Of a DNA stretch of 64,000 nt, positions 35,286 through 62,015 are shown piece by piece. A model generated the notes under the pieces. It saw only the letters and a list, made by a program, of their open reading frames with translations. It ran no database searches and was not told where the DNA came from. The stretch spans positions 3,722,001 through 3,786,000 of the forward strand of contig NC_087252.1 of the NCBI RefSeq assembly GCF_037042905.1, in the 5' to 3' direction. Made by a program: the position numbers and the translations under genes. Position 1 is the first letter of the stretch. Each line of letters opens with the position of its first letter. Source of the stretch: Lytechinus pictus. Taxonomy: Eukaryota.

Positions 35286-35551
35286 ATGGCCGAAACAAGA
35301 AAACTAGGTCGTCCTTCATTTTCCCCAACGAGAAAAGAAGCATTTAGAAAGGATTCCAACATGTCCAAGAAGATGTTTCGAGATAAAAAGCGGAAGGAGC
35401 GAGATGAGGCTTTGTCTACCGTCGTGCCGCCGACCGCACCCCGCTACAAACATATTCGCATTTCAACCGCTACGTTCTGGCGATGGCGATCACTTGCTCA
35501 AGAGCTTGGCCTGGAAGGAGACGAACAGATGGCTTCATTTCTCTTAAACAC
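35286..35551 (+). CDS. ZNF gene B, constant coding exon 1 (AT-hook-like KLGRP, basic helix, RHH-like module)
   Basis: ATCATGG start at 35286, downstream of a CpG-rich patch (about 35065-35160). Donor AAACAC|GTCAGT (266 nt, phase 2). Peptide ...KHIRISTATFWRWRSLAQELGLEGDEQMASFLLNT. Confidence 0.85.
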
Positions 35552-35797
35552 GTCAGTAGAATAGATTTTAAATTAAATCTCAGATATTTTCCTAAAATAA
35601 ATCTTGATCCTGGCTGTGGTAGGGTGGTTTGTAATACTAATAATAGTACAAAAAATTATGAGTGAAGTGTCATAAATTTTTAGTACAAAGTCGTCAAACT
35701 TAAGACAAAGTGTTGGGAAATATTATTCTTGAATGTTAGAGAACAAAATAGAAGATGATTCAGGGGGCTACGTTAGAGAACAAAATAGAAGATGATT

Positions 35798-36233
35798 CAG
35801 GGGGCTACATAAGCACTTGCCTGGGGTAAGTAAGAGTTCGAGTTGGGCAAGTGTTTTGAAGTAAAGACCAAAGCTACTTGCCCGAATTGCGCAAGCAAAA
35901 TTCTCACAATAAAATGACAAAAATTAGGGTTGATAATGATATGATACTGAGTTTGACCCTAAATTTGGTCATGGCAGGCAAGATAAAATCACTTGTCTTT
36001 GGAAAAAGAAATGCAACAACAAAGTAGATCAGTTCATGTCAAAAGAGAGAAAAAGGTAAATGGTTAATAAATAAAATACTGCATAACCAAGCTCTTTTGG
36101 AGAACTAAAACTTATTTTTTCAATGATTTTTTTCGGGCAAGTGAAATAGATTTTTGGGCAAATATATTCAAGATATTTAAAAATTTACTTGCCCGACCAG
36201 GCAAGTGCTTCTAAAAAGTTATGTAGCACCCTG
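35798..36233. mobile_element. hAT-like MITE with CTTGCCC/GGGCAAG subterminal motifs; its left end is part of a 37 bp tandem duplication
   Basis: CAGGGGGCTACATAA / TTATGTAGCACCCTG termini. GTTAGAGAACAAAATAGAAGATGATTCAGGGGGCTAC occurs twice at 35734-35808. Confidence 0.65.
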
Positions 36234-37509
36234 GATAATTTCAACTATTGACATGATTGAATTCATATTTTTAGTGTAATCCAAAGACAAAAAAAAGGCT
36301 TCAAATAAGAATATAAAGTGTCCGGACACCCGACCACCCATGTGTCTGGTGTGTGTTTTGGTGTTTGATAACCCTGGCCGGAGCCCAGGTCTCGTCCGAG
36401 TAATACTAGGCAGACAAGGGTATTCTCCAAAATGGGGTCGCAATAATTAGGGAAAAATGAATTATGCACTTACCTTGATTATATGGATATGTCACAATAC
36501 TCAATAGACCTTCATCCATATAATCGAGGTAAGTGCATAATTCAATTTTCCCCCTTTTATTTGGGGTGCTATTGCGACCCCATTCTATCCCATTTTGGAG
36601 AGTACCCGCTGCCTAATATTACGAGTCCTCGGCCTGAGCTCCCTGGGTTTAGTGTTTGACTGGGCTGGCTTGTGAAATAGCTTTGACAGGTAGAATCCCG
36701 GCACATGGCAAAGTTAGGGCGCGTTACTCAATCAGTAGAGGCGCATGGCCAATATGGGAGATAATCCATATTAGAGACATGCTTTGCAAAAGTACAAAAG
36801 AAAGAACTCCAACAAAAGCATATTTTTTTCCATCCAAAATTTTGTCTCACTGAGGTCAGAAGCCCATTTGTTTTGTGTTTGAATGGGATTGCTTCCCCTA
36901 GCGCCAAAACCTATTCCGAGTTTGTAAAACTGATCCAGATCACACTATTGAATGGATGACAACAAAAATCCTTATCAAAACAAAAGTAGATGGTGAAAAG
37001 GGGTAGTTTTTCAAGAGGAATCTGCTTATCACATTTTTATTTTCTGCCACTAAGGTAATACTTTTGAAGCAAATGAAAACATAGGAAATTGGCCTCCCAA
37101 ACTGGAGACTGTCTCTGAAATTGGATACCAAAATTCTTTACAAAAGTCTCTGATATTGGAGATAAATCTCTCTCATGGGAGACAGTCTCCCATATTGGCC
37201 GTGCGCCTCTACTGTCTATAGATCTGTTGACTTGAGACATGAGAAAACCTTTTCTTTTCCCCTAATGCGCCTTGAGCGCTCTACATGTACTGAGTGGATT
37301 TGGTGCTACATCAGTCCTTCATGTTTATAATTTCGTAGAGCTCAATAAATTGCTCTCCTTATTTTTTTGAGGAGCTCAATACAATACATGTATGATAAAT
37401 TGTAGATTTTTCTTAACATCGTATATGTGCAATAGCTGTGTACAGTGTAGCTATTAATTAATCTGTGGTCACTGGTGAAACTAGGCCTGGGTCAATACGT
37501 TTACAAAAT

Positions 37510-37998
37510 ATCGCGCTCCTGCTCAAAAAAAAAAAAAATTGCTAAAATTTCACATTTTACATCTTTAAATCCATGAAATGGCCATCTATTTTCCATAATT
37601 CCTTGAAATTATTTTGATTTAGTTGAAAACTATCAGAAAATGAAGAATATTCACCTCTTTCCCGACTCTGATTTGAACTTACACTCGGTAAATATTGTAG
37701 TCCCACATGTACTGTACATGTAGACTTCCATGGTGTTGCCATGAAAATCTACATATGGGACTACATGTACAATATGAGTTCAAATTTAAATCAGAGTCGG
37801 GAAAGAGGTGAATATTCTTCATTTTTCTGATAGTTTTCAACTAAATCAAAATAATTTCAAGGAATTAAGGAAAACAGATGGCCATTTCATGGATTTAAAG
37901 ATGTGAAATTTTAGCAATTTTTTTTTTAGGAGCGTGATTTTTTGCTATTTTTCTTTAGTAGCGCCGGCGCGATCGCGCTCCTCAAAAATGAAGGTCTG
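37510..37998. repeat. Long near-perfect inverted repeat (foldback-like element); a one-armed copy lies at about 43518-43910
   Basis: 37540-37680 is the reverse complement of about 37790-37925, with the centre near 37735. Confidence 0.85.
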
Positions 37999-39386: not shown

Positions 39387-39434
39387 GTACTATGAGCGGG
39401 CAGTGGAAGCTGCTTCTAAAGAACAGAGACAAGA
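39387..39434 (+). CDS. ZNF gene B, constant micro-exon 2 (48 nt, phase 2-2)
   Basis: TTTTAATGTAG|GTACTATGAG...ACAAGA|GTAAGT. Extends the last helix: (T)YYERAVEAASKEQRQ(D). Confidence 0.8.
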
Positions 39435-40509
39435 GTAAGTATTTAACTGTTCTGGGCCCCACTTTATAAAGAATTGTTACAAATTAACCATAAAGTAAAT
39501 TTACGATGATCAGCCAATCAGATTGCAGGATTTCAGTAGCTTTTAAATGTTACTGCAAATTTGTTATTTCAAGTTTTATGAAACGGATCCCAGACTGGAT
39601 ACTAAATCTGACTGGTTATTCCATACCGGAAATTCTCTTTACAGTGCAAAGTCTTGATTGTACTTGTTGAGTGAAAGAATATAAATGTATGATACTTTAT
39701 GAATCACAAGCTAAAAAAGAACATTTTGATAAACAGAGCTACATGTACATGTATGGAACTTCCTTTTCCTTTTATGTCTCTTTTCTTGCTTTTCCTTTGT
39801 CTTTTTCTTTTCAACCTCTTTATCCCAAATATCATTATTTCCTTTTCTCCATCTCTCCTACCTTTATACCATCTGTCCTCTTTTCTGAATCTCATTTCCT
39901 TTTTCTCCTCATCTCATTTGTTCTTGGTTTTTTTTTTTACATAGTCTTCTTCATTTTATATTTCCTTCTCCCCTTCCCCTTTTATATTTCTTCAACTTTT
40001 CATTCTTTTCAGATTTTCCCCCTTTTTCCTCATATTACTATGTGCAGTGCACATGATATTGTGAAAAATTTTGTAAATGATAAAGAATGTACCTCAAACA
40101 TGTAAAATAGAAAATACAGAAAAACATACTTTGTGAACTACATGTAATGAGTCTGGCTTTGACAAGGTATTTATTTATTGCTGTTTTTTTTTTAGTTTTT
40201 TTTTTATTCTAGCTAGTGGAAAATAAAGGGGGGATCAACCCAGGGATCAAATTGGATGATATGTAAGTTTTTTTAAAGTAGCAAACAAGGGGTGAAATAT
40301 TTTAAAATCTTTTAACACAAATTCATAAAAAAATAATGATATCAAAAGATGGGTAATACTTAAAAGAAAACTTGTCCAACAGCATTCTCAAACACAGCAT
40401 AACAATCACAGATTTTGTGCAGGTGGTGTGGATGAAAATTAATGTCTTTTTTTCTTATCCTGCCGTTTAATACATGTACATGTATTTCTCCTTGGTCTAT
40501 CTTATGCAG

Positions 40510-40787
40510 TATTCCCCAGAATTCCGAAGAATCGAGGCAAAATGTAGAGACTTCCATGTTCCAAGGTGATGAGCAAGGCACAGAGACAGATGCCATGGGA
40601 TCTACAACACTGCCAATGCAAGCTACGCAAGATGGCTGGAGAGGTGATGATGGTGACAAGAGTCACAAGACTAATGATGGTGGTGAGATGTTAGAAGGGG
40701 AGTTCACCTGCCTTGTCAAAACGGAACCTCACGATAGTGGTGAAGAATCCAATGAACATGGAACATTACCATCCGTCAGCCAACAAG
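40510..40787 (+). CDS. ZNF gene B, constant exon 3 (acidic), phase-1 donor
   Basis: TCTTATGCAG|TATTCCC...CAACAAG|GTTTGT, in the frame of ORF 40442-40819. Ends VKTEPHDSGEESNEHGTLPSVSQQG. Confidence 0.85.
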
Positions 40788-41481
40788 GTTTGTTTTCATT
40801 ATCTGAATTTGTAAACTAATGATATCACCAAATCTTAAGTTTTCCCATGCAAATATGGTGCTTCATATAATTTTAGCTTAACTTTATCTGATGTCGTGCA
40901 TGTGGGATCAGTAATTATAATTAGTCAGGAAGCTTAATGAAGAAACTCTTGAGAAAGTTATATGCAGTTCACATCACAGGGTATTTATTAATCAGTAGTC
41001 AGCCACAGTTATAATTCGAGGTACACGAATATCAATAAAGATTTTGGTTAAAACAGGAGAAGTGTAGGATTAAAAATTCTGAAGTAGAATAATATTGGAT
41101 GGACGTCTAAGTCTTGAAGTCAGTCTATCTGGATGAGTGTGGGTCTAGTACATGCAATTGTCTATCTAAAAATCAAGAAGCCTTATTTATATCATTAGTT
41201 TTGGGGGTGTAACAATTTAAGGTGAGAGTGATCTAAACTTGATCTGATTGGTCTACAGGTAACTGTCTATCAAACTTTCTCTGGTAAAGGGGTGTGATGG
41301 TGCTCTGTCCAGAGGCTGGGGCTGGTATTATAAGTCATAGTTCTTAGAACTTTTGTTCCTTGAAGTTAGCTGACGTCACTGAGGGTTGGTCAGGGTTTAG
41401 GAGATTAATGGTATTGGGTGTTTGGGGTTTCTAAGATGACATTGGAGGAGTTTGTAAACAAGTGAAGGTGAATGACTGAAA

Positions 41482-42910: not shown

Positions 42911-43039
42911 AGGAAGTTAACTACATGTACATAACACCAGTTTCATGAAAGGACTTGTCGGACGTTTTATCCGACAAGTCCCATTTTATCCGACAGTTAC
43001 CATAGTAACATTACCTCTCAGCCAATCAACATCATGATC

Positions 43040-43298: not shown

Positions 43299-44432
43299 TC
43301 AGAGAAAGATGTCTGGGGGGCGTTTCATGAAAGGACTTGTCGGACGTTTTATCCGACAAGTCCCATTTTATCCGACAGTTACCATAGGAAAAGTGCCTCT
43401 CAGCCAATCAAAATCATGGAAAGATGTCAGATCTGACAACTTGTCGGATAAAAATATTGATGAAACGCTCTCCAGATCCGACAACTTGTCGGATGAAAAT
43501 GTTGATGAAACACTCCCCAGACCTTCATTTTTGAGGAGCGCGATCGCGCCGGCGCTCCTATAAAAAATAACAAAAAATCGCGCTCCTAAAAAAATTACAA
43601 AAAATCGCGCTCCTAAAAAAAATAACAAAAAATCGCGCTCCTAAAAAAAAAAAAAAATTGCTAAAATTTCAGATTTTACATCTTTAAATCCATGAAATGG
43701 CCATCTATTTTCCATAATTCCTTGAAATTATTTTGATTTTGTTAAAAACTCAGGAAAATGAAGACTATTCACCTCTTTCCCCGACTCTGATTTTAATTCA
43801 AATTCGGTAAATATTCTAGTCCCATACAGGTGTATGTAGATTTTCATGGCAACACCATGGAAGTCTACATTGTGGGACTACAATATTTACCGAGTGTAAG
43901 TTCAAATGAACAGGAAGTTTGGGGTTTGATTCCTTGTAGAGAAATACTCAATATTTGAAAAATAGGATCTTATGCCTTGTGAAAATAGGGTTGATAACAA
44001 CAACATGTTATGGGGGGCCTGCTTGAAAACCAGCAGATAGTTGAAATAGCTATCCTGGTTAAATGACAATTATTGACAAAAAAGTTTTGTGTTAAAAAAA
44101 ATTGATCAGTCATGTCATTCATGAGTGAGCATACATTAAAGGCCAGAGATACACAAGGTTAGCCCATAAAATATTTTATTTTGCTGTGAAGTTTTAACCG
44201 ATCAATTCCTATATTGTGGTGTCGGTGAAAGAACGTCCTAAGCAAAACATTTTCGTACACCGCATAGGTGCAGAAACACCATTAAGCAGTCCAATTATGC
44301 TTGCTGCTAAAGGCATTTTTGCGTGCATGCAATACGCAAAACTGTGGTGCTAAGAGTGTTCTTGCACTAACTGGAAAATATACTGTAATGCTGTATATAT
44401 ATATACTATACATAATTTTTATATTTCTTCAG

Positions 44433-44552
44433 GAGACAGCTTGACAGGAGATGATGATGATAGGAAGGAGATTGAAGAAGTGGAGTTTAAATGTCTTATC
44501 AAAGAAGAACCGGATGATGGTGAACGCAACCAACCATCCTGCAGCAAGCAAG
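44433..44552 (+). CDS. ZNF gene B, exon 4 (120 nt, symmetric phase 1-1), last constant exon
   Basis: TTTCTTCAG|GAGACAGC...AAGCAAG|GTTTGT. Peptide GDSLTGDDDDRKEIEEVEFKCLIKEEPDDGERNQPSCSKQG. Confidence 0.85.
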
Positions 44553-44802
44553 GTTTGTTATCATGATCTATATGTTGTGTTAAATGTGCGCAGTACAGAA
44601 AATAATTTCTATTTCAAAATGGGTAAACATTTTAACAAATGCGATTCTAGCTAAATTTCTTTCTAAATTGAATGGTATAACAGGCCCAATTTATAATTAT
44701 TATTATGCCCTTCTGACCTTTCAACAAAAGTGATTTTAGCTACAGTGTACCTATCTTTAATACTGAATTGAATAGTAAAACAGGCAAATTCATCATTTAC
44801 TA

Positions 44803-47245: not shown

Positions 47246-47430
47246 AAACCTACATGAAGATTATTTTTTGACATTATCAGCAGCCCAGTCCTTCCTTGTG
47301 AAGTTCATCAGAAACCTACATGAAGATTATTTCTTGACATTATCAGCAGCCCAGTCCTTCCTTGTGAAGTTCATCAGAAACATACATGAAGATTATATCT
47401 TGACACTACCAGTAGCCTTGCTTGTGAAGT
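47246..47430. repeat. 66 bp tandem repeat, about 2.7 copies
   Basis: AAAC(C/A)TACATGAAGATTAT recurs at about 47246, 47312 and 47378. Confidence 0.85.
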
Positions 47431-48774: not shown

Positions 48775-49328
48775 GTGGGAATTCGAGTGAGCAGAGGAGC
48801 AATGAGGAAATGGCAGGTGATGCATCATGTGACAGATCACATGCTCATGGACTGAGTTCTGCTAACAGTGCTTACTTGTCAGATCATGGAGAATTGGCTG
48901 AAGATACCACAACCCAAAATGTGTATTATGAGACACGTGAAGAAGCATCTTCAGGGAAGGTTTACAGCATATTTTCGCCTAGAAGCTATCAACATGATCC
49001 TCCCCAGGACCCTGGCATTGATAAACCTTACGTCTGCCCTGTTTGCAGTAAAGGATTTACCCGCAGCGATTGCTTTCGAAGGCATAAGAAAACGCATCGT
49101 AGTGAAAGGCCTCATGAGTGCCATTTATGCCCAAAGAGGTTTCAGCGTGCCGAAGATCTCCGAAGACACCTACGAACCCACTCTGGAGAAAAACCATATG
49201 CATGCTCCGTTTGCAATCGACGCTTTGGTAGGAACTCAAGTCTCAAACAACATATGGCACGTTATGAGGTTAGCTGCGACACTGGTCAACGTGTGATTAA
49301 ATGTATAATGGAAAAAGTGCTTGTATAA
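48775..49328 (+). CDS. ZNF gene B variable exon a1: 2 canonical C2H2 fingers plus 1 atypical finger (isoform 421 aa)
   Basis: CTGCTCTCCTACTCAG|GTGGGAATTC phase-1 acceptor, in the frame of ORF 48726-49328. Confidence 0.85.
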
Positions 49329-49573
49329 CGAGATGAAAGTTTGTTATGTAGATGCACACAAGATACCATACTGGAGAAAACAGTTTTGCCACGAAAGAAT
49401 TTCCAAGCTCGTCATCTTACTGTACAGGAAAGAATCCACACAGGAAAGAGTGTCTTGGAATATCTGCTTGTGTTATCAAAAGCATTTCCATCATGACTTT
49501 CAGCAACCTTGTGAACCTCGTTATCCATGTAAATTCCTTTGCGTCAAAGTGCAGCACATAATAGATATTTCAT

Positions 49574-50153
49574 TTGAGTATGCAGAGCATCTGTGAAGAC
49601 ATCAGGAAAAATGAGGGAATGTCAGGTGATACATCATGTGACAGATCACATGTTCATGGACAGAGTGCTGGTACCAGTGCTGTTTCAGATCAATTGGCTG
49701 AAGATATCACGACCCAATCTGTGTACGGTGAGACACATGAAGAATCATTTTCAAGGATGTTTTACAGCATATTTTTACCTAGAAGCAATCAACATAATCC
49801 TCCCCAGGACCCTGGCATTGAAAAACCTCATGTCTGCCCTGTTTGCAGGAAAGGATTTACCCACATCAATTGCTTTCGAAGGCATAAGAAAATCCATCGC
49901 AATGAAAGGCCTCATGTGTCATTTATGACCGAAAAAATTTCAACGTGCCGAAGATCTCCGAAGGCACATGTGGAAACACAAGGAGAAAAACCATATATGC
50001 TCAGTATGCGATAAACGCTAATAGTTGGAACTCAAGTTTCAAAAACCATTTGGCAGTTCATAAATGAGAAAAACTATATATATGCTCAGTATGCGATAAA
50101 CGCTAATAGTTGGAACTCAAGTTTCAAAAACCATTTGGCAGTTCATAAATGAG
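49574..50153 (+). pseudogene. Gene B variable exon b1, defective
   Basis: Homologous to b2/b3, but the CTGCTCTTTTACTCAG|GTGG acceptor is deleted. Frameshift after finger 1, in-frame stops, and an about 85 bp tandem duplication at 49983-50153. Confidence 0.8.
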
Positions 50154-50468
50154 GTTAGCAATGTTTGATTAGATGTACTTAGTGGAAAAGGGAATGTATT
50201 ACAAGATGAAAGTCTGTCATGTCAATATACTGTCAATGCACACAAGATATGCAAGAAAAAACAGTTTTGCCACGAAAAAATTTCCAAGTTCATCATCTAG
50301 CTGTACAGGAGAATCAACATGGGAAAGAAAGTCTTGGAATAACTGTTTGCGTTATCAAAAGCATTTCCGCCAAGACTTCTGGTACCCTTGTGAACATCTT
50401 AGCCATGAAAATTCATTTGCGTAAAAGTGCAGCACATGATAGATATTTTATTCTGCTCTTTTACTCAG

Positions 50469-51457
50469 GTGGGAATTCAAGCAAACAGAGCTCCTGTCAA
50501 GAAATAGGGAACACTCAGATAATGTCAGGTGATACATCACATGACAGATCACATGGGAAGCATCTCCCAGGTGACTACCCTTTACCAGCTGTCCTAGGAA
50601 CCCCTTCCCATTCATCTCCCAGAGGCCATCGCTCAAGTGAGTATGGCTCCTATCTCTTGCCAAACCAAGTGGATTATCCTCAAAGACAGAATGCAACTGA
50701 CAGTGCTACCATGTCAGATCGGAAGAGGTTGGATGGAGGCATTGTGGTGGAGAATGAGAATTATGACACATATTCTTTACAAAACACAAAAAGGTCATTC
50801 CCCGTCGAGACAAGAAGCATTCAAAGTACTTCTTGCATCAATCCCGAAGGAGAAAACACTTTTCTCTGTTCCATTTGCAGTAAGGAATTTAACCGCAAGC
50901 ATAATTTGAGGCGGCATATGAAATTCCATGAAGGAAAAAGACCTCACACGTGCTCTTTCTGCAACAAAACTTTTGTACAAAAAGGCGATCTCAGGAGACA
51001 TGAGCGATCCCATACTGGGGAAAGACCGTATTCATGTTGTTTTTGTGACAAACGCTTTATAGATACATCCCACCTAAAAGCTCATTTGTTAATTCACACT
51101 GGAGAAAAGCCGTATGAATGCAGCCTTTGTGACAAAACCTTTTCTCATAAAGCTAGCCTAACGGTTCACCTGAGATTGCACAGTGGTGAGAAGCCATTCA
51201 AGTGTTCACTCTGCGACAACAGCTTTTCTTTGAAAAGTCAGCTCATGAATCATCAGATCAAACACACGGGCATAAAGCCATACCAGTGCTCGGTTTGTGA
51301 GAAAAGGGTCGGGACAAAAAGCTCTTTAAGTCAACATATGAAGATTCATTCAGGAGAAAAACCATTTCAGTGTTCTGTATGTTCAAAGTGCTTTCGGCGG
51401 AAGAGTACTCTTAAAAAACATATGAAAATCCATGGAATCTCTTGTGAGGACTTGTGA
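50469..51457 (+). CDS. ZNF gene B variable exon c1: 7 C2H2 fingers (isoform 566 aa)
   Basis: CTGCTCTTTTACTCAG|GTGGGAATTC acceptor, in the frame of ORF 50219-51457. AATAAA at about 51594. Confidence 0.9.
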
Positions 51458-52516
51458 TTTCCTATGAAACACTGTCAAATCATCAATGTTCGGCAGACGT
51501 TACACATTTCTAACCGGGGAGCTTTTCATATAATCTTTTGTCAACGATTTTTCGTGACTTATTCGATCTCAACCAATGATCACTTAAAACAGTAATAAAC
51601 AGTGCAAATCTTTGATTATTTCTTACATGAAATTATCCCATTGTTTCATCTATTGTTTTGAGTGGTATACGTACTGTGTGCAATGTTTACTTTGCATTTC
51701 AAGGATGTGGAATTAAAGTGGAGAAGAAGTGAATTATGATTCAAATCACTGTTTATGATATCAAACATACAGAGATGCCAACTGTCCTATACTGGATTTA
51801 CATTTTTTCTCTGAAAATATTTATCTTACTTTTTTTCATTTTTAAATTTAAGAAAAAGACAATTAGCAAATTTGCTCTGGTCTGAAATCTGAAACAAGTA
51901 AAATCTGCTGAGTTTGATGAGGGATGAAATGTCGAGAGATTTTTGGAATATCAGATTTTTACATTTTTATTGATATTTAGATTAAGCACATTCCATCAAT
52001 AAAATACTTTCAGAGGAATTTTAACTTGAATTTTATTTTGGAAAATCTCCTTTTTGTGGTCCCAAACATAATGTATTTAAGTTGATATAATTTTGTTGAT
52101 AAAATATTAAACTCAAAAGTCAAGTGTCGTGAAACTTTACAACAATATTCTCCTTAAAGATATCTGATAACCAGCAAAATCTGAAAGCTTTTTAAAACAT
52201 TTGTATAGGTTTAAAATCTCTGAATGGCTAATATGTAAGGTGCACTACATGTATATCTTGGACTGTAAGGCCCAAGATAAACAAATGTGTACTGAGGCCG
52301 GCCTTGGAGATACCTTGACATACAGTGTATACATCAGCTCAGCTTACTATTTTTGATTGCTAGACTGGACTGTGTCCACCTACGTACAAGGCGATGTGAG
52401 TCCCTCAATTACTCTAAGGTGGCTTAAGCATTGAACTACAAATAGCTAGCAAAAGTTATTACTAACGAACAAGAGAAAATGTTGACGTGAAAAGACAGTT
52501 GATTCGTGTCACTTAA

Positions 52517-53259
52517 CCCTAAAAAGACTGGATTTATTGCAAAAAATGACAGTGGGGGCTGAATCAGCCCTCCCCCTCAACATTTTTCGTGATAAATCCA
52601 CCACTTAAATTTTTATTACTGCATCGCTCATTGACTTTTTACTTTTTTAAAGTCTTGTGCAACTTCTGAGATAAAAAATGCGACCCCCAGGTAAGCGGTT
52701 CCGAGATTACGCAACATTTTGTAAGTGCATGCAGACCCAAAATTACTCAAAAATGTGAATTCGTGTAAAAATCCAATGCAAATAGTGTTTTTAGCCATAA
52801 TTCATAAATGTACATGTATCATTTATTTTTCCTTTTACTAATTAAAATCAAATGATCTCTTGTTCATGGTCAAAATAAAATGCCCAACAATTTCCATTGA
52901 AAAAAAGCAATAAACAAAAAGTGGAAAACAAGGAACATCAGAAATCTAGAAAACAATGTGATGTTGATTTTTTAAACTACATTTGATCATATTCCTATAA
53001 AGAGTCTTTGATCCAAAATTAGCATATGATAGGCATTATTTACTGAATTAGAGCAAACTTTTTTATTTAATGCATAATCAATTAGCCATGAGATTTTTTC
53101 GCAGAATTTGACCATTGAGTTTTGTAGAAAATGCTATGGATAAGGCACGTGCCAATTTTTGTCGCGATCATGCTATTGACGGCCGAGATCTTAAGGGGGA
53201 CTGATTCAGGCCCCCCCCCCCCCAGTCTTAGGCGTCGAAATAGCCCAGTCTATTTATGG
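52517..53259. mobile_element. piggyBac-like MITE (TTAA TSD); duplicated copy at about 58466-59208
   Basis: TTAA|CCCTAAAAAGACTGG...CCAGTCTATTTATGG|TTAA. The second copy ends CCAGTCTTTTTAGGG|TTAA. Confidence 0.8.
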
Positions 53260-53685
53260 TTAAATAGGCGATGTGGATAAAGAATCTCAAAGCAGTTTCA
53301 GTCTTCTAGCATGTGTGGAACACCACCCAAATTGCTTGGTTGAGGCCGGCTCAAAAGCTGGTGTTGGATGTGGCTTCAAACCCAATGCATGTGTATCTTG
53401 GGTCTTAGCCTGAAGAATTTGGCAAAAGACTACCTCTCTAGCATCACATAAAAGAACCCACAAAGTCATTTCCTGACACTTTATAAGTCAATAGGGCGTT
53501 ACATTTACATGTAGCTTTTCTAAATTAGGTACAATTTTCAGTCAGACTGAATTCTTTTCAACAATTTTACATGACTGCCTGGGAAGCAATAAATCATTAG
53601 TATGGTCTCTGCTTACTTTCTCTGGATGGTTATAGGATAGATATTAGAAGCATTCTGTTCCATTTTTAAACTCATCAATGATAAT

Positions 53686-54031
53686 AATAATAATATTCCG
53701 CATTTATAAAGTGTTAATACATCGGAACGACGTCTCTAAGCGCTTTACAGACATATTATTACCCCGGTCATCGGATCCTTGCATGCCCGCATACAATGTA
53801 TGCACCCTCTCCACTCCCTGGGGAGCATTCCAACAAGAGTTCCAAGACTCAATTGCTAGGCATACTACATAGGCTTTCGCATCCTACCAGGTACCCATTT
53901 AACACCTGGGTGGAGAGTGGCAAAGTGTGGATTAATGCTTGCCAAAGGACGCTAGGCCATGGTGGGATTCGAACACACGACCATCTGATTACAAGGCGAG
54001 AGTCAGAACCACTTCACCACGACGCTTCCAC
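53686..54031 (-). mobile_element. Full-length tRNA-derived SINE inserted 19 bp upstream of exon a2
   Basis: Minus-strand A/B boxes and (ATT)n tail. TSD ATGATAAT at 53678-53685 and 54032-54039. Empty site in the duplicate at about 59645. Confidence 0.85.
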
Positions 54032-54050
54032 ATGATAATTATATGCTCAG

Positions 54051-54535
54051 ATGGGAATTCAAATGTGCAGAGCACCTGTGAAGGTATCAGGAAATATTAG
54101 GAAATGTCAGGTGATACATCATGTGACAGATCACATGCTCATGGACAGAGTTCTGCTACAAGTGCTAACATGTCAGATCAATTGGCTGGAGACATCACGA
54201 CTCAATGAGGGTATGGTGAGATGGTTGAAGAAGCATTTTCAAGGAAGTTATTTTCAACTAGAAGTAATCAACATAATCCTCCCCCGGACCCTGGCATTGA
54301 TAAACCTTTTCTCTGCCCTGTTTGCAGTAAAGGATTTACCCACAGCGATTGCTTTCAGAGTCATAAAAACCCATCGAAAGGAAAGGACTCATGTGTCATT
54401 TATGACGAACCTGCGAAGATGTTTGCAATTACATGCGGACCCACACTGGAGAAAAACCATATGTATGCTCCATCTGTGATCAACGCTTTGGTAGGAACTA
54501 AAGTCTCAAAAAAATATATAGCACGTCAAAGCTGA
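54051..54535 (+). pseudogene. Gene B variable exon a2, defective
   Basis: ATGCTCAG|ATGGGAATTC acceptor. The phase-1 frame hits TAG after ...CEGIRKY (about 54098). Fingers are frameshifted. Confidence 0.8.
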
Positions 54536-54831
54536 GGGTAGCAACATCACTTGTCAACGTGTGATAAAATGTCTAGTAGAAAAAGTGCTTGTATTACAAG
54601 ATGAAAGTTATGTCAATACAACAGTTTTGTTGTGAAAAAATTTCCAAGCTCATCATCTTACTGTACAGGACAGAATCCACACAAGACAAAATTTCTTTGA
54701 ATATCTGTTTGTGCTATCAAAAGCATTTCCATCAAGACTTCTGGTGATCTTTTGAACCTCATTATCAATGAAAATTCCTTTGTGTCAAAGTGCCGCACAT
54801 AATAGATATTTGATTCTGCTCTTTTACTCAG

Positions 54832-55343
54832 GTGGAAATTCAAGTGTACTAAGCATCTGTGAAGAGATCAGGAAAAATGAGGAAATGTCAGGTGATACAT
54901 CATGTGACCGATCACATGCTCATGGACTGAGTTCTGCTAACAGTGCTTCCAGGTCATATCAAGGAGAATTGACTGAGGACATAATGACCCAGTACATGTA
55001 TGTGTGTGGTGAGACACATGAAGAAGCATTTTCAAGGAAGTTATTTTCACCTAGAAGTAATCAACATAATCCTCCCCAGGACCCTGGCATTGATAAAACT
55101 TACACCTGCCCTGTTTGCAGTAAAGGATTTACCCGCAATGATTGCTTTCAGAGGCATAAGAAAATCCATCGAAAGGAAAGGCCTCATGTGTGCCGTTTAT
55201 GCCCGAAGAGATTTCTGCGTGCCGAAGATCTTCGAAGACATATGCGGATACACACTGGAGAAAAACCATATGTATGCTCTGTATGCGATAAATGCTTTAG
55301 TTGGACTTCTAGTTTCAAACGCCATTTGACAGTTCATAGATGA
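54832..55343 (+). CDS. ZNF gene B variable exon b2: 3 C2H2 fingers (isoform 407 aa)
   Basis: CTGCTCTTTTACTCAG|GTGGAAATTC acceptor, in the frame of ORF 54768-55343. Confidence 0.88.
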
Positions 55344-55660
55344 GGTTGGCAACATAACTGGTTACGGTGTGGTTAGATGTTTAGTGGAAAAATATGTCAA
55401 TATTCTGTCAATGCACTCAAGATACCATACTGGAGAAAAACAGACTTGCCACAATGAACATGTCCAAGTTCATCATCTATTAACCTGTACAAAAGAATCA
55501 TCATGGGAGAAAAGGTCTTGGATGTTATTTTTTTGCTTTATCAACAGTATTTCTGCCAAGACTTCTGGTACTTATGTGAACATCCTTATCCATGAAAAGT
55601 ACTTTGTGTAAAAGTGCAACACATAATAGATATTTTATTCTGCTCTTTTTAAATACTCAG

Positions 55661-56637
55661 GTGGGAATGTAGGCAAACAGAGCTCCTGTCAACAAAAAGG
55701 GAATACTCAGATAATATCAGGTGATTTATCACATGGGAGGCATCTCCCAGGTGACTACCCTTTACAAGGAACCCCTTCTTATTCATCTCCCAGAGGCAAT
55801 TGCTCAAGTGAGTATGGCTCCTATCTCTTACCAGACCAAGCAGATTATCCTCAAGGACAGTGCTCTGCTGACAGTGCTACCACGTCAAATCATGATGGTG
55901 AAAGATTGGTTCTAGACATTGTTGTGGGGAATGAGAAATATCACACAAATTCTTTACAAAACACAAAGAAGTTATCCCCTGTCACTGCAACGAGAAGCAT
56001 TCAAGGCAATCCTGGCATCGACCCCAAAGAAGAAAGCACCTTTCTCTGTTCCGTTTGCAATGAAGGATGTAAACGCAAGGATGATTTGAAGCGGCATATG
56101 ATCTTCCACAAAGGGAAAAAGCTTCATGAGTGTTCTTTCTGCAACAAAACTTTTGTATCAAAAGCCAATCTCATTAGACATGAGCGATCCCATACTGGGG
56201 AAAGACCGTATTCATGCTTTATTTGCAACAAACGGTTTCTAGATACGTCTCATCTAAAAGCTCATCTGTCAATTCACACGGGAGAAAAACCGTATGAATG
56301 CAGCCTTTGTAACAAAGCCTTTTCTCTTAAAGCTCCTCTAATGGCTCACCTGAGAATGCACAGTGGTGAGAAGCCATTCAAGTGTTCACTCTGCAAAAAC
56401 AGCTTTTCTTCCAAAAGTAATCTCAAGGCTCATCAGATCAAGCACACGGGCGAAAAGCCGTACCAATGCTCGGTTTGTGAGAAAAGGCTGTGGAAAAAAG
56501 ACTCTTTAAATCAACATATGAAGATTCATACAGGAGAAAAACCATTTCAGTGTTCTATTTGTTCAAAGAACTTTCGGCAGAAGAGTAATCTTAAAAATCA
56601 TATGAAAATCCATGAAATATCTTCTGACGATTTGTGA
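55661..56637 (+). CDS. ZNF gene B variable exon c2: 7 C2H2 fingers (isoform 562 aa)
   Basis: CTGCTCTTTTTAAATACTCAG|GTGGGAATG acceptor. The phase-1 frame is open (GGNVGKQSSC...) into ORF 55906-56637, whose start is TTG. Confidence 0.88.
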
Positions 56638-56756
56638 TTTCCTACGATAAAAGTATGGCAGATATTAAAAATTATTATCCGACGAGCATTTCATAATCTT
56701 TTGTCAGCGATTTTCCCTGACTTATTCGGTCTCAACCAATGTAATATTTCACTTAA

Positions 56757-57755
56757 GGTGACAGGTGCCCTAAAAAAATTTTTTTTTTATGATTTCAATT
56801 TTTTTGTCTCCTTTGCTAGTTTCATGTGTGTACTTCATCATGCAACTTGTTTTATCTCAATATTCTACCTCTTGTTTTAATAAGAGGGGGGTTAAAACAT
56901 ATTTTTTTCATAAAATTCTCAAACCGGAAGTAGTATTTTACACACCGGAAGTGATTAAATCTGTCCCCAAAACCTTTGATACTGCCTTTAAAAAAAATCA
57001 GAAATTCCCCAGATTTTTTTTGGCTGAAGCCCCAGATATTCCATGTAGCAAAGTGGACTACCACCCTCTGTTGGCCAAATAGGGAGAGCTACTGTATTGC
57101 ACAATATGGCAGCGACTTCAAGTTACATACACTATGTGACAGACATGGCACGTTACAAATTTCCGTTATTATTAGTATTATAGCCCTTTCTTTATCGTGA
57201 TATTATACAAAATTGAGGGTTTTTTAAATGAAAAATGTAATAACTTGAGTTCTAATCATTGGATTTGCATGAAATTTTGTAGAATTGTGTATCTTGAAGA
57301 GTACAACAAAATAATGATAGTTTTTGTGCATGGTACCCCCACAGGTGGAGTTGTGTATAAAAGTCCATTCTGAATTTCTCATTATCTGACTGCTTGTTTA
57401 ATCCATAATTTTTACAATTCTACTCTGAATATTTCTTAAAGCCATCATAAATTCATCACAAAGAAGTCAGAGAATTAAATTAATCCATCAAAACTTAAAT
57501 TACACTCTATGTTGTGAAGTTATAACCATAGAAAGTTCATATAGAGAAAAATCTTGATTTTTAAAGTCATGACTTTGAATGACCATATTTTGCTTATGCC
57601 TAAAGCTTATATGCCACAGTGCAAATTTTTGTGTAGATCAGCTCATAAGCTTTCCAAAAATATATAGTTTGTTGGGGTACAGGTACTTAGTAAGAATCCT
57701 ATGCTTGATTATATACCCGTAGTCGTTTCCGCACGGTAATAGGGCACCTGTCACC
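56757..57755. mobile_element. Kolobok-like non-autonomous element (TTAA TSD), present only in triplet copy 2
   Basis: TTAA|GGTGACAGGTGCCCTA...TAGGGCACCTGTCACC|TTAA. Empty sites CACTTAAAACAG (about 51581) and CACTTAGAAGCAG (about 62095). Confidence 0.88.
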
Positions 57756-59642
57756 TTAACACAGTGCAAATCATTGATTATTTGTGACATGAAATTATCC
57801 CCTTGTTTCATCTATTGTTTTGAGTGGTATAGGTACCGTGTGCAATACGTACTTTGCATTTAATCAAGGTTGTGGAATTAAAATGGAGATGAAGTGCGGT
57901 ATTCAAATCACTGTATAAGATGTCAAATACAGTATACAAAGATGCCAACTGTCCTATTTTACTGGATTACATTTTTTCTCACAAAATCAATATGTTTTCT
58001 TTTTCAAATATTCTAAGAACAAAGAAAATGCGCAAATTTGTTCTTGTCTGAACTCTGAATCAAGTAAAAATCTGCTGAGTTTGATAGGGGACGAAATGTT
58101 TAAGAGATTTCTGGAATGTTAGATTTTTTAATATCTACTTCATTGAATTAAACATAATTCCATCAATGAAATACTTTCAGAGGGATTTTAACTTGCATTT
58201 TATTTTCGAAAATCTTTTCTTTTTGTGGTCCCAAACATAGTGTAAGTCAATATATTTTCGTTGGTAAAATATTTAACTCTAAGTCAAGTGTCGGGAATCT
58301 TTACAACAATATTCTTCTTTAAGATATTTATCTTAATAATGATAACCAGCAAAATCCAAATGCTTTTAAAACATTTTTTATAGCTTGAAAATCTCTGAAT
58401 GGCTAATATGTATTAAAGTTGCACTACATGTATATCTTGGACTTTAATGCCCAACATACACATCCATTAAAAAGACTAGATTTATTGCAAAAAATGACAG
58501 TTGGGGGGCTGAATCAGCCCTCCCTCCCCCAACATTTTTTGTGATAAATCAACCACTTAAAATTTTTTTACTGCATCGCTCATTGAGTTTTTACATTTTT
58601 AAGTCTTTTGCAACTTTGGAGATAAAATTGCGACCCCGGGTACGCAGTTCCAAAATTCTGCAACATTTCGAAAGTGCATGCAGACCCCAAATTGCTCAAA
58701 AACGTGAATTTGTGTACAAATCCAATGCAAAAAGTGTTTTTAGCCATAATTCATAAATGTGCATGTATCATTATTTTTTCCTTTTACTAATTAAAATCAA
58801 ATAATATCAACTTGTTCATGGTCAAAATAAAATCCCCAACGATTTCCATTGAAAAAAAAACAATAAAAAAGAAAAAGTTGAAAACAAGGAAATAAATCAA
58901 AAACTTAGAAAACAATGAATTAAGGTGATGTTGATTTTTTTTAAGTACATTTGATCAGATTCCTATAAAGAGTCTGTGAACCGAAAATTAGAATTTGGGA
59001 GGCATTATTTACTGAATTAGAGCAAACCTTTTGATTTTTTGCATAAATAAGCTTAATTAATTAGCCATGACATTTTTCGCAGAATTTGATCATTGAGTTT
59101 TGTAGAAAATGCTATGGATAAGGCACATGCCAATTTTCGTCGCGATCACGCTTTCGACAGTCGAGTCCTCTTGGGGGTCGAAATAAATGTAGCCCAGTCT
59201 TTTTAGGGTTAAATAGGCGACGTGAATTAAGAATCTCAAAGCATTTTCAGTCTAATTCTAGGGTGTGTGTAACACCACCCAAATTGCCGGGTTCAGGCTG
59301 GCTCAAAAGCTGGTGTAAGAGGCGGCTTCAATCCCAATGCATGTGTATCTCGAGTCTTTGTCTGGAGAATTTGGCAAAAGATTACCTATCTGGCATCACA
59401 TTTAATAATGAACCCACAAAGACATTTCCATACACTTTAAAGTCAATTTGGCATTTCATATATATGTAGATATTCTAAATTAGGTACATTTTTCAGTCAT
59501 AATTCTTTTGAAACAATTTTCCACAACTGCCTGGGAAGCAATAAACAATTACACTGTAGGGAATAAAGTATGGTCTCTGCTTAATTTCTCTGGATGGTTA
59601 TAGGATGGATATTAGAAGCATTCTGTTCCTTTTTTTACTCAG

Positions 59643-60117
59643 CAATGATAATTTGAGTGTTCATGGACTGAGTTCTGCTACAAGTGCTAACATGTCAGAT
59701 CAATTGGCTGAAGACATCACGACTCAATGTGTGTATGGTGGTGAGATGCTTGAAGAAACATTTTCAAGGAAGTTATTATCACGTAGAAGTAATCAACATA
59801 ATCCTCCCCAGGACCTTGGCATTAATACACATTACCTCTGCCCTGTTTGCAGTAAAGGATTTACCCGTAGCGATTGCTTTCAGAGTCATAAAAAACCCAT
59901 CGAAAGGAAAGGCCTGATGTGTCATTTATGCCCAACGTGCGAAGATGTTTGCAATTACATGCGGACCCACACTGGAGAAAAACCATATGTATGCTCCGTT
60001 TGCAATCAATGCTTTGGTAGAAACTCAAGTCTCAAACAACATATGGCACGTTATGAGGTTAGCTGCATCACTGGTCAACGTGTGATAAAATGTATAATGG
60101 AAAAAGTGCTTGTATAA
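59643..60117 (+). pseudogene. Gene B variable exon a3, defective
   Basis: The original acceptor and first about 85 nt are deleted. The nearest TTTTTACTCAG| (59642) gives A-M-I-I-stop in phase 1. Fingers 1-2 are degenerate. Confidence 0.75.
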
Positions 60118-60197
60118 CGAGATGAAAGTTTGTTGTGTCAATACAACGTTGAAAAGTGCCGCACATAATGGATATTTCATTCTGCTCTTTTACTCAG

Positions 60198-60703
60198 ATG
60201 GAAATTCAAGTGTGCTGAGCATCTGTGAAGATATCAGGAAAAATGAGGAAATGTCGGGTGATACATCATGTGACAGATCACATGCTCATGGACTGAGTTC
60301 TGCTAACAGTGCTTCCAGGTCAGATCAAGGAGAATTGACTGAGGATGTAATGACTCAGTATGTGTGTGGTGAGACACATGAAGAAGCCTTTTCAAGGAAG
60401 TTATTTTCACCTAGAAGTAATCAACATAATCCTCCCCAGGACCCTGGCATTGATAAAACTTACACCTGCCCTGTTTGCAGGAAAGGATTTACCCGCTATG
60501 ATAGTTTTCAGAGGCATAAGAAAATCCATCAAAAGGAAAGGCCTCATGTGTGTCATTTATGCCCCAAGAGATTTGTGCGTGCTGAAGATCTCCGAAGACA
60601 TATGCGGATACACACTGGAGAAAAACCATATGTATGCTCTGTATGCGATAAACAATTTATTTGGAACTCTAGTTTCAAATACCATTTGACAGTTCATAGA
60701 TGA
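60198..60703 (+). CDS. ZNF gene B variable exon b3: 3 C2H2 fingers (isoform 405 aa)
   Basis: CTGCTCTTTTACTCAG|ATGGAAATTC acceptor, in the frame of ORF 60110-60703. Confidence 0.88.
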
Positions 60704-61026
60704 GGTTAGCAACATCACTGGTTACAGCGTGGTTAGATGTTTAGTGGAAAAATAGTGTTATGTCAATATACTGTCAATGCACTCAAGATACCATACTGGA
60801 GAAAAACAGATTTGCCACAAAAAACACGTCCAAGTTCATCATCTATTAACCTGTACAGGAGAATCATCATGGGAGAAAAGGTCTTTGATATTATCTGTTT
60901 GCTTTATCAACAGTATTTCTGACAAGACTTCTGGTACTCCTGTGAACATCTCTATCCATGAAAATTGCTTTGTGTAAAAGTGCAACACATAATAGATATT
61001 TTATTCTGCTCTTTTTAAATACTCAG

Positions 61027-62015
61027 GTGGGAATGTAGGCAAACAGAGCTCCTGTCAACAAAAAGGGAATACTCAGATAATATCAGGTGATTCATCACAT
61101 GACAGATCACATGGGAAGCATCTCCCAGGTGACTACCCTTTACAAGGAACCCCTTCCAATTCATCTCCCAGAGGCAATTGCTCAAGTGAGTATGGCTCCT
61201 ATCTCTTACCAAACCAAGCAGATTATCCTCAAGGACAGTGCTCTGCTGACAGTGCTACCACGTCAAATCATGATGGTGAAAGATTGGTTCTAGACATTGT
61301 TGTGGGGAATGAGAAATATCACACAAATTCTTTACAAAACACAAAGAAGTCATCCCCTGTCACTGCAATGAGAAGCATTCAAGGCAATCCTGGCATCGAC
61401 CTCAAAGAAGAAAGCACCTTTCTCTGTTCCGTTTGCAATGAAGGATGTAAACGCAAGGATGATTTGAAGCGGCATATGATCTTCCACAAAGGGAAAAAGC
61501 CTCACGAGTGTTCTTTCTGCAACAAAACTTTTGTACAAAAAGCTGATCTCATTAGACATGAGCGATCTCATACTGGGGAAAGACCGTATTCATGCCTTAT
61601 TTGCAACAAACGCTTCACAGATACGTCTCATCTAAAAGCTCATCTATCAATTCACACAGGAGAAAAGCCGTATGAATGTAGCCTTTGTAACAAAGCCTTT
61701 TCTAATAAAGCTAACCTAACGGTTCACCTGAGATTGCACAGTGGTGAGAAGCCATTCAAGTGTTCACTCTGCAACAACAGCTTTTCTTCCAAAAGTCTGC
61801 TCGTGAATCACCAGATCAAACACACAGGCATAAAGCCGTACCAGTGCTCAATTTGTGAGAAAAGGCTTGGGAAAAAATATTCTTTAAATCAACATATGAA
61901 GATTCATTCAGGAGAAAAACCATTTCAATGTTCTGTTTGTTCAAAGAACTTTCGGGTGAAGAGTACTCTTAAAAAACATATGAAGATCCATGAAATTTCT
62001 ATTGAGGACTTGTGA
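61027..62015 (+). CDS. ZNF gene B variable exon c3: 7 C2H2 fingers (isoform 566 aa)
   Basis: CTGCTCTTTTTAAATACTCAG|GTGGGAATG acceptor. The frame is open into ORF 61284-62015. Confidence 0.88.

What the first reader, a model, noticed from the sequence alone, without database searches (positions are those of the whole stretch)
35286..62015. One constant N-terminus, an array of nine alternative zinc-finger 3' exons (lola/mod(mdg4)-like gene without BTB)
Seen: four constant exons (35286-35551, 39387-39434, 40510-40787, 44433-44552; 712 nt) end in a phase-1 donor. Downstream lie nine homologous ZF segments. Six (48775, 50469, 54832, 55661, 60198, 61027) begin with the same about 30 nt acceptor, are in frame with that donor and end in their own stop. 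The spacers (often only about 300 bp) show no further constant exons. Known: Drosophila lola and mod(mdg4) join a constant BTB region to many alternative 3' DNA-binding exons. Inference: this is one gene producing at least 6 transcription factors with different DNA specificities, an independently evolved version of that design. Gene finders would likely split it into single-exon ZNF genes. I know of no description of this family but cannot search. The array may continue past the window.
Basis: partly seen in the sequence, partly recalled or inferred. Interest (0 to 1): 0.93.

Follow-up and report, generated by a model that had tools for sequence, protein, structure and literature searches.

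The report
Sea-urchin gene with swappable zinc-finger endings
A sea-urchin gene joins one fixed front part, which probably pairs with itself, to any of about nine different zinc-finger endings laid out in a row, so one gene can make many DNA-reading proteins, a design best known from flies that here seems to have arisen separately from different parts.

Summary
Confirmed and extended. The gene is Lytechinus pictus LOC129266428. Four constant exons end in a phase-1 donor, followed by 12 zinc-finger modules: 9 in the window, 3 beyond, 9 intact. RNA reads join 44552 to 61027 (59 reads, three runs; some may belong to 55661), skipping intact acceptors; all six intact in-window modules have sense-strand depth. 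RefSeq models join exon 4 to three more complete modules. Only one junction was seen directly. Two additions. (1) Most modules are composite exons: a donor 147-177 nt in lets a stub splice onward; current RefSeq isoforms chain these stubs and end in the last module. (2) The constant N-terminus has no BTB but models as a ribbon-helix-helix-like homodimer (0.41, best control 0.02). Three paralogous genes share the design with two last exons each. DNA-contact residues diverge fast while the finger scaffold is conserved. It works like lola but is not a member. Ten literature searches found no description. The scan noted similar, RNA-unsupported layouts in other genomes.

The parts
34901..35285 (+). 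CpG-rich promoter/5' region of the gene (inferred)
   Evidence: CpG o/e 1.53 in the 300 nt before the ATG, against 0.12-0.41 before 5 of 6 module acceptors and 0.84 before 60198
35286..35551 (+). Constant exon 1: basic stretch plus RHH-like domain (residues about 54-88)
   Evidence: fold and dimer leads
39387..39434 (+). Constant exon 2
40510..40787 (+). Constant exon 3, acidic linker, phase-1 donor AAG|GTTTGT; its 3' end resembles that of exon 4 (31 of 37 nt)
44433..44552 (+). Constant exon 4, last common exon, phase-1 donor; single copy in the genome search
   Evidence: read depth 71/113/81 at position 44526
48775..49328 (+). Module M1 (short type; 2 complete fingers plus a degenerate third); lacks the +170 internal donor
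   Evidence: joined whole to exon 4 in XP_054760256.1; depth 2-7 after an intron near 0
49573..50152 (+). Module M2, broken here (acceptor deleted, frame broken); its stub appears in RefSeq models with five residues absent from the window
50469..51457 (+). Module M3 (7 fingers); internal donor CAA|GTGAGT after 50636; AATAAA at 51594 and 51998
   Evidence: whole in XP_054760255.1, stub in current isoforms
54051..54530 (+). Module M4, broken (weak acceptor next to a high-depth repeat, stop at codon 16)
54832..55343 (+). Module M5 (3 fingers); weak internal donor GTG|GTGAGA after 55008
   Evidence: M5-type exon joined whole in XP_054760251.1
55661..56637 (+). Module M6 (7 fingers); internal donor after 55807; first in-frame Met only at residue 146, inside finger 1
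59643..60117 (+). Module M7, broken (5' deletion, acceptor out of frame)
60198..60703 (+). Module M8 (3 fingers); internal donor after 60368, used in RefSeq models
61027..62015 (+). Module M9 (7 fingers); internal donor after 61185; direct junction from exon 4
   Evidence: 17/22/20 junction reads in X19/X20/X21
62016..63300 (+). Likely 3' UTR of the M9 isoform; depth falls to about 0 after 63343; ATTAAA at 63017, 63132, 63193
15129..15337 (+). Upstream paralogous gene: RHH-like coding exon
17165..17754 (+). Upstream paralogous gene: last constant exon, same type of phase-1 donor
23663..25131 (+). Upstream gene, alternative last exon U1 (8 fingers, internal donor lost)
   Evidence: L. variegatus isoform X1
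28075..29291 (+). Upstream gene, alternative last exon U2 (9 fingers, internal donor after 28242)
   Evidence: L. variegatus X2 and an L. pictus X2 model

Best explanation
One transcription unit makes a family of C2H2 transcription factors. A constant 237-residue N-terminus (basic stretch, RHH-like homodimerising domain, acidic linker) is cis-spliced from a weak phase-1 donor to one of up to nine intact, tandemly duplicated zinc-finger last exons. Most modules are composite exons, so three outcomes are open at each. The acceptor is skipped. Or it is used and the transcript runs through the fingers to a poly(A) site, giving that module's protein. Or it is used and the transcript leaves at the internal donor about 160 nt in, adding an in-frame 49-59 residue stub and moving on to a later module. 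Short-type modules have no canonical poly(A) signal of their own and probably share that of the next long module. The repertoire evolves by birth and death of last exons, with fast change at DNA-contact residues. Shown: exon structure, one distal junction, sense transcription of the modules, selection pattern. From automated models: three more whole-module junctions and the stub junctions. Inferred: full-length isoforms and their proteins, cis rather than trans splicing, poly(A) sites, dimer, different DNA targets.
For: Joint 44552 to 61027, GT..AG, 17/22/20 reads from 12/16/14 starts in 3 of 3 raw RNA runs. That is 19-25% of exon-4 depth, or about a quarter to a third allowing for anchors, so most exon-4 molecules go elsewhere. 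Sense-strand depth is about 0 over 46669-48669, then 2-7 at M1, 5-9 at M3, 2.5-6 at M5, 8-12 at M6, 8-10 at M8 and 7-20 at M9, ending near 63.3 kb. Older-version RefSeq models join exon 4 to whole M1, M3 and an M5-type exon; the current ones use stub exits 49727, 50636, 60368, 61185, 69671 and 69797. L. variegatus models show the same stubs in the same order. 4 of 4 genes found with this N-terminal domain have two or more finger last exons in RefSeq models. M6 and M9 have no Met before residues 146 and 114, so they cannot stand alone whole. M6 vs M9: pN 0.27 at contact positions, 0.037 elsewhere in the fingers, pS 0.18 (Fisher p 1.5e-8 and 1.3e-5). Homodimer model: score 0.41, best of 3 controls 0.02, runs agree in at least 94% of contacts, pLDDT 79. 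The mark was reached by 21 of 30 solved pairs and 0 of 23 single chains in microbes, and by 17 of 29 pairs (animals 7 of 16) and 0 of 30 single chains in eukaryotes; a pass may come from memory of solved RHH dimers. Residues 9-14 pair with the same residues of the other copy. The top structural neighbours are TCP, NikR, CopG, Arc and other RHH folds.
Against: Only one exon-4 junction was displayed (15 joints shown, 76 not). M6 and M9 share their first 66 nt, so part of the 59 reads cannot be placed between them. No stub-exit junction was among the joints displayed; stub use rests on automated models and on a rough split of binned depth that the tool's human-like read filter could distort. All 6 current RefSeq isoforms retrieved end in the last module. 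Phase 1 of the internal donors is no evidence of design: 38 of 39 GTRAG sites in these frames are phase 1. Last modules (M12, U2) keep the donor with nothing to splice to, and third-codon invariance there is not unusual (31 of 98 columns). Contact-site pN does not significantly exceed pS (p 0.18). The RHH matches are weak singly (Foldseek E at least 0.6, best Z 4.1, no Pfam RHH hit). There are no protein, long-read or 3'-end data.
Confidence: 0.8

Rival explanations
1. Few real isoforms. One or two endings (for example M9 and M12) carry the function; the other modules are recent duplicates used at low level, and stub chains are splicing noise from a donor that happens to be spelled by the Ser-Ser-Glu-Tyr codons.
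For: 3 of 12 modules are already broken. Donor-like GTRAG arises in phase 1 from ordinary codons. L. variegatus models also exit at a site inside a finger array. Current RefSeq isoforms all end in M12.
Against: Purifying selection on the finger scaffold of M6/M9 and M3/M9. M3-, M9-, M11- and M12-type stubs are kept in order in two species. The donor is the most conserved 9-mer among seven diverged stubs: all 5 of 98 windows with 8 of 9 invariant bases overlap it, with M6 (near-copy of M9) and U1 (lacks the donor) left out. As an account of the stubs alone this rival is about even odds; the confidence given is for the whole statement.
Confidence: 0.1
2. The isoforms are real but made by trans-splicing from separately transcribed module clusters, as at mod(mdg4).
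For: Short-read junctions cannot tell cis from trans. lola uses both and mod(mdg4) only trans (PMC1947980, PMC13490949; passages read). Depth is about 0 over 46669-48669 in rRNA-depleted libraries.
Against: All 12 modules lie on the sense strand, downstream of the constant exons. No CpG-rich patch precedes 5 of 6 acceptors, and spacers can be only 318-324 nt. Zero intron depth also fits fast cis-splicing or low coverage.
Confidence: 0.07
3. The modules are separate single-exon zinc-finger genes with their own starts, and the junction reads are read-through into one of them.
For: M1, M3, M5 and M8 have an in-frame Met at residue 12-18. An older RefSeq fragment of M12 was annotated alone (P0014).
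Against: Conserved acceptor at every intact module; late first Met in M6 and M9; direct junction reads; the same layout in three paralogues.
Confidence: 0.03

Closest known systems
Drosophila longitudinals lacking (lola)
   Same: Common N-terminal exons joined to one of many zinc-finger C-terminal exons; the constant part holds a self-associating domain (PMC1947980, passages read).
   Different: No BTB; RHH-like domain instead. Variable exons are 2-12-finger C2H2 arrays of very recent tandem origin (one 1956-nt duplicate is 92% identical), with internal donors and stub chains. Deuterostome host. No sign of homology of the constant part.
Drosophila mod(mdg4)
   Same: Constant exons plus many variable 3' exons (31 mRNAs; PMC13490949, passages read).
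   Different: mod(mdg4) is BTB-based, wholly trans-spliced, with exon clusters under their own promoters and on both strands. Here all modules are on one strand and no internal promoter is evident.
KRAB-ZNF and cyprinid FiNZ-ZNF genes
   Same: An N-terminal effector exon upstream of one exon holding a finger array (PMC10547256, passages read). Fast change at contact residues is typical of KRAB-ZNFs (recalled).
   Different: There whole genes duplicate; here only the finger exon duplicates behind one promoter. No KRAB or other Pfam family in the constant part.
Ribbon-helix-helix proteins (Arc, CopG, NikR) and plant TCP domains
   Same: Predicted strand-helix-helix monomer and intertwined homodimer with the strand pairing on itself.
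   Different: No significant sequence match. Fused to animal C2H2 arrays; one literature search for RHH with metazoan C2H2 gave nothing on such a fusion.
Composite terminal exons (intronic polyadenylation)
   Same: An exon is internal if its 5' splice site is used and terminal if the transcript runs on to a poly(A) site (PMC4227790, passages read).
   Different: Here the run-on part is a conserved DNA-binding coding region, and the unit is repeated in series up to twelve times.
RefSeq gene LOC129266428 (L. pictus) and its L. variegatus counterpart
   Same: The same gene; the constant exons and several junctions are already in automated models.
   Different: The current models chain stubs into 776-940 aa proteins ending in the last module and carry generic names. 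The array logic is not stated.

Membership tests
lola / mod(mdg4) BTB genes with variable 3' exons | N-terminal BTB/POZ domain in the constant exons | tested here: not met
   Pfam scan of exon 1 and of the 263-aa constant-region protein P0001: no BTB, 0 families for P0001 at E up to 1
lola / mod(mdg4) BTB genes with variable 3' exons | Constant exons joined to several alternative 3' exons | tested here: met
   One distal junction in reads; three more whole-module joins in RefSeq models
lola / mod(mdg4) BTB genes with variable 3' exons | Variable exons encode different DNA-binding domains | tested here: met
   Different finger numbers and contact residues across nine modules; binding itself not tested
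lola / mod(mdg4) BTB genes with variable 3' exons | Trans-splicing from internal promoters (all of mod(mdg4), part of lola) | not testable with these tools
   Only indirect signs against: one strand, CpG-poor spacers
KRAB-ZNF / FiNZ-ZNF | KRAB domain | tested here: not met
   No Pfam hit in the constant part
KRAB-ZNF / FiNZ-ZNF | FiNZ domain | not tested
   No FiNZ profile was compared
KRAB-ZNF / FiNZ-ZNF | One finger-array exon per gene | tested here: not met
   12 modules behind one set of constant exons
KRAB-ZNF / FiNZ-ZNF | Faster change at DNA-contact residues than in the scaffold | tested here: met
   pN 0.27 against 0.037 for M6/M9; same direction for M3/M9, M3/M6 and M5/M8, opposite for M1/M8
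Ribbon-helix-helix fold (Arc/CopG/NikR/TCP) | Strand-helix-helix fold | tested here: inconclusive
   Model pLDDT 78.7 with two helices; best Z 4.1 (rmsd 2.3, 37 aligned) to NikR, most top rows RHH or TCP; Foldseek E at least 0.6; atlas leads under their bars
Ribbon-helix-helix fold (Arc/CopG/NikR/TCP) | Homodimer with the two strands paired | tested here: met
   Predicted only: score 0.41, best control 0.02, residues 9-14 pair across copies; may reflect memory of solved RHH dimers
Ribbon-helix-helix fold (Arc/CopG/NikR/TCP) | Sequence match to an RHH profile | tested here: not met
   No RHH family in Pfam; no hit below E 0.34 among solved chains
Ribbon-helix-helix fold (Arc/CopG/NikR/TCP) | DNA binding through the strands | not testable with these tools
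   No assay possible
Composite terminal exon | Internal 5' splice site that is used | tested here: inconclusive
   Strong donor in 8 of 13 intact modules, weak in 2, none in 3; used in RefSeq models of two species; not among the 15 joints displayed
Composite terminal exon | Poly(A) site downstream of the run-on part | tested here: inconclusive
   AATAAA/ATTAAA after M3, M6, M9 and in 0 of 3 spacers after short modules; depth ends near 63.3 kb; no 3'-end data

The most novel reading that the evidence does not exclude
Sea urchins have independently built a lola-like system from an animal RHH-like dimerisation domain and KRAB-ZNF-like poly-finger last exons. Isoform choice is a serial stay-or-leave decision at each composite exon, with the conserved internal donor selected as the switch or as an aid to recognising the acceptor. 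Isoforms heterodimerise through the shared domain to read combinations of sites. Many other tandem finger ORFs in urchin genomes (unrelated arrays at C8:3.85 Mb and C12:26.47 Mb look alike) are such last exons, so urchin zinc-finger gene counts mix genes and exons.
Probability: 0.3. Interest if true: 0.9.

Novelty: new variant of a known kind. Interest (0 to 1): 0.75.

Why it matters
It shows a second route to a fast-evolving zinc-finger repertoire: duplicate the last exon, not the gene. One promoter then feeds many DNA specificities, and splicing or 3'-end choice sets the mix. It gives a deuterostome parallel to lola built on another dimerisation fold, and it suggests an RHH-like domain in animal transcription factors. 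It also shows that current RefSeq proteins for such loci can be stub chains that drop most finger arrays, which affects zinc-finger counts and motif predictions made ORF by ORF. L. pictus is an experimental model (recalled), so the splice switch can be tested directly.

Tried and rejected
Single-exon genes: rejected (late Met in M6/M9, conserved acceptors, junction reads). Phase 1 of internal donors as a sign of selection: rejected, since 38 of 39 GTRAG sites in these frames are phase 1. Recursive splicing: joining exon 4 to most acceptors rebuilds AAG|GTGGGA, which scores like the real donor on a simple U1 match (6.0 against 6), but M8 starts with AT and no test was possible; kept as a low-odds idea. 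Positive selection at contact sites: not significant (p 0.18). Homologues outside Lytechinus: none in three word searches and one full phmmer search (the two extra hits are low-complexity). This is weak evidence for a 43-88 aa fast-evolving query. A resemblance to the N-terminus of human ZNF692/ZNF653 is recalled, was not tested on sequence, and one paper search gave nothing useful. PDB sequence search found no relative. The atlas feature search on the upstream paralogue gave no usable hit. In the run search no holder was on record as RNA; raw RNA runs came by species label. The contig run X1 showed no exon-4 joint, which shows nothing. The whole genome was not available as a file, so arrays were not counted genome-wide. 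Of the neighbourhood, 90 kb downstream, 20 kb upstream and about 31 kb elsewhere were read. PMC218142 (lola trans-splicing) was not held. The S. purpuratus zinc-finger survey of Materna et al. 2006 is recalled and was not seen; it or its supplements could mention such loci. No supplements were read.


Full report
Source. The window is C8:3,722,001-3,786,000 of an 812 Mb genome. Exon 1 matches RefSeq proteins of Lytechinus pictus at 99-100% and of L. variegatus at 92%. The gene is LOC129266428.

Observation. The four exons total 712 nt, read open from ATG 35286 and end in a phase-1 donor AAG|GTTTGT. RefSeq proteins match them exactly. The six named acceptors are in frame and give 405-566 aa products. 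The acceptor motif occurs 7 times on the + strand and 0 times on the - strand, always at a finger module. Exons 1, 3 and 4 have no copy within the array. Self-comparison fits a unit of two short modules and one long module repeated three times; the last two copies of the short+long pair are 92% identical over 1956 nt. M2, M4 and M7 are broken here. Three more intact modules follow the window at 64830, 69525 and 74249. That makes 12 modules, 9 intact, with 2, 7, 3, 7, 3, 7, 12, 8 and 9 complete fingers.

RNA evidence. One lay covered 44001-64000 with three raw rRNA-depleted runs (about 6% of each read) and one contig run. The joint 44552 to 61027, GT..AG, is in 17, 22 and 20 reads. M6 and M9 share their first 66 nt, so some reads may belong to 55661. 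Either way at least three intact acceptors are skipped. These reads are 19-25% of exon-4 depth, about a quarter to a third after allowing for anchors, so most molecules go elsewhere. The table showed 15 joints and hid 76, so other junctions could be neither seen nor excluded. Sense-strand depth is about 0 in the intron before M1, present over all six intact modules, and ends near 63.3 kb, close to ATTAAA sites. The reads come from other individuals and carry many other letters, so assignment among close copies is imperfect.

Gene models. Older-version RefSeq models join exon 4 to whole M1 (XP_054760256.1), whole M3 (XP_054760255.1) and a whole M5-type exon (XP_054760251.1). I take such alternative models to rest on transcript alignments (recalled, not checked per model). 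The six current isoforms retrieved do something else. They enter at M3 (4 of 6) or at an M2-like exon (2 of 6, with five residues absent from the window, suggesting M2 is intact in other haplotypes). They then leave at internal donors, chain stubs of M8, M9 and M11, and all end in M12. Eight L. variegatus isoforms chain M3-, M9- and M11-type stubs and up to four M12-type copies.

The internal donor. Of 13 intact modules examined across three genes, 8 have CA[A/T]|GTGAGT 147-177 nt past the acceptor, a better U1 match than the constant donors; 2 have a weaker GTG|GTGAGA; 3 have none there. Each such module is a composite terminal exon in the sense of PMC4227790 (passages read). For function: the site is the most conserved 9-mer among seven diverged stubs (5 of 98 windows with 8 of 9 invariant bases, all overlapping it; M6 and U1 were left out, U1 because it lacks the site). 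A rough split of binned depth also puts the stubs of M3, M6 and M9 above their finger bodies in 9 of 9 run-module cases. That split assumes spacer depth equals neighbour depth and could be distorted by the tool's filter on human-like reads, so it is weak. Against function: phase 1 follows from codon use (38 of 39 sites), wobble invariance alone is ordinary (31 of 98 columns), and last modules keep the donor. I rate stub use as probably real and its selection as a switch as about even. No AATAAA or ATTAAA lies between a short module's stop and the next intact acceptor (0 of 3), while all three long modules have them downstream. Short isoforms therefore probably run on to the next long module's 3' end.

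Selection. For M6 against M9, pN is 0.27 at finger positions -1, 2, 3 and 6, 0.037 elsewhere in the fingers, and pS is 0.18 (Fisher p 1.5e-8 for contact against other, 1.3e-5 for other against synonymous). The modules are under constraint as proteins while their predicted specificity changes. Contact pN is not significantly above pS (p 0.18). M3 pairs and M5/M8 show the same direction; M1/M8 does not.

The constant domain. Pfam finds no BTB, KRAB or other family. Residues about 54-88, and the matching region of three paralogues, look like strand-helix-helix. Atlas features of exon 1 point to RHH and CopB families at 0.75-0.77, a lead only. The atlas model of the upstream paralogue resembles RHH proteins at TM 0.62-0.71, under the bar. 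An AlphaFold2 model (pLDDT 78.7) has TCP, CopG, NikR and Arc as its nearest Foldseek rows, all E at least 0.6, and mostly RHH or TCP chains in the wide search, best Z 4.1, rmsd 2.3 over 37 residues. The two-copy model scored 0.41 against a best control of 0.02, with runs agreeing in at least 94% of contacts, pLDDT 79, and residues 9-14 pairing across copies. The mark was reached by 21 of 30 solved pairs and 0 of 23 single chains in microbes, and by 17 of 29 pairs (animals 7 of 16) and 0 of 30 single chains in eukaryotes. The pass may come from memory of solved RHH dimers. I put an RHH-like homodimer at about 0.75. It would play the part BTB plays in lola, and could let isoforms pair with each other (inference).

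Family. Four genes with this domain were found, all on C8: this one, the upstream gene in the window (last exons 23663 and 28075), one at 274.9 kb and one at 324.9 kb. RefSeq models give each of the other three two alternative finger last exons (matched to modules by reading the printed sequences). No homologue outside Lytechinus was found, which is weak evidence for so short a query. An unrelated minus-strand array 60 kb downstream has five phase-1 acceptors after an exon ending in a phase-1 donor. Two tandem finger exons with one lead-in lie 550 nt apart on C12. Neither was tested with RNA.

Comparison and novelty. It works like lola: common N-terminus with a self-associating domain, variable finger endings (PMC1947980, passages). 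It is not a member: no BTB. mod(mdg4) differs further in being wholly trans-spliced from internal promoters (PMC13490949, passages). The finger exons evolve like KRAB- or FiNZ-ZNF arrays, but those duplicate as whole genes. In PMC10547256 (passages) the words 'isoform' and 'splic' occur 0 times in the main text although sea-urchin finger ORFs are analysed. Ten full-text searches (listings and abstract starts seen) showed no description of this locus or design in echinoderms. Subscription papers, Materna et al. 2006 (recalled) and supplements were not seen. Parts of the structure already sit unremarked in automated RefSeq models. Earlier notes of this scan describe similar layouts in other genomes without RNA support, and none matched this sequence.

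Verdict. A real, expressed lola-like array in a deuterostome, with two features of its own: composite modules and an RHH-like constant domain. New variant of a known kind. Confidence 0.8 in the main mechanism; interest 0.75.

Noticed in passing
window 15129-29291 (+): Paralogous gene with an RHH-like exon, the same type of phase-1 donor and two alternative finger last exons (23663, 28075); both forms are in L. variegatus RefSeq models. The proximal exon has lost the internal donor and the distal one keeps it.
   Followed up: yes
L012/L013 (G000:C8:274,501-294,500) and L015 (C8:324,700-325,300, -): Two more paralogues with two last exons each in RefSeq models; the first has a long tandem peptide repeat in its last constant exon.
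   Followed up: partly
L008, L009, L014 (G000:C8:3,846,001-3,876,000, - strand): Unrelated array of five finger exons with a shared phase-1 acceptor (1, 10, 4, 13 and 10 fingers to the first stop) after an exon ending in a phase-1 donor.
   Followed up: partly
L016 (G000:C12:26,466,001-26,476,000): Two tandem finger exons with the same lead-in peptide about 550 nt apart, the second with 24 fingers and further broken fingers; other same-strand finger clusters on C2, C5, C8, C12 and C13 appear.
   Followed up: partly
window 40436-40819 and 44354-44563: Exons 3 and 4 end in similar sequence (31 of 37 nt), so exon 4 may be a duplicate; exon 3's donor is also in frame with all acceptors, but models join it only to exon 4 and the read lay did not cover it.
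   Followed up: partly
L. variegatus models P0007-P0011, P0017-P0019: Up to four M12-type copies, three cut after 4 fingers and chained to the next, which would combine finger arrays from several modules in one protein if real.
   Followed up: no
window 3-1487 (-): Long single-frame leucine-rich-repeat ORF with a signal-like start, running off the window; resembles sea-urchin Toll-like receptor genes (recalled).
   Followed up: no
window 3378-4513 (+): Broken reverse-transcriptase-like frames of a non-LTR retroelement (by eye).
   Followed up: no
window about 53700-54030: A repeat just upstream of broken module M4 draws thousands of antisense-oriented reads in all three RNA runs, probably from other copies of a highly transcribed short repeat.
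   Followed up: no
module starts 48775, 50469, 55661, 61027: Splicing exon 4 to these acceptors rebuilds AAG|GTGGGA, a possible recursive donor; untested and possibly chance.
   Followed up: partly
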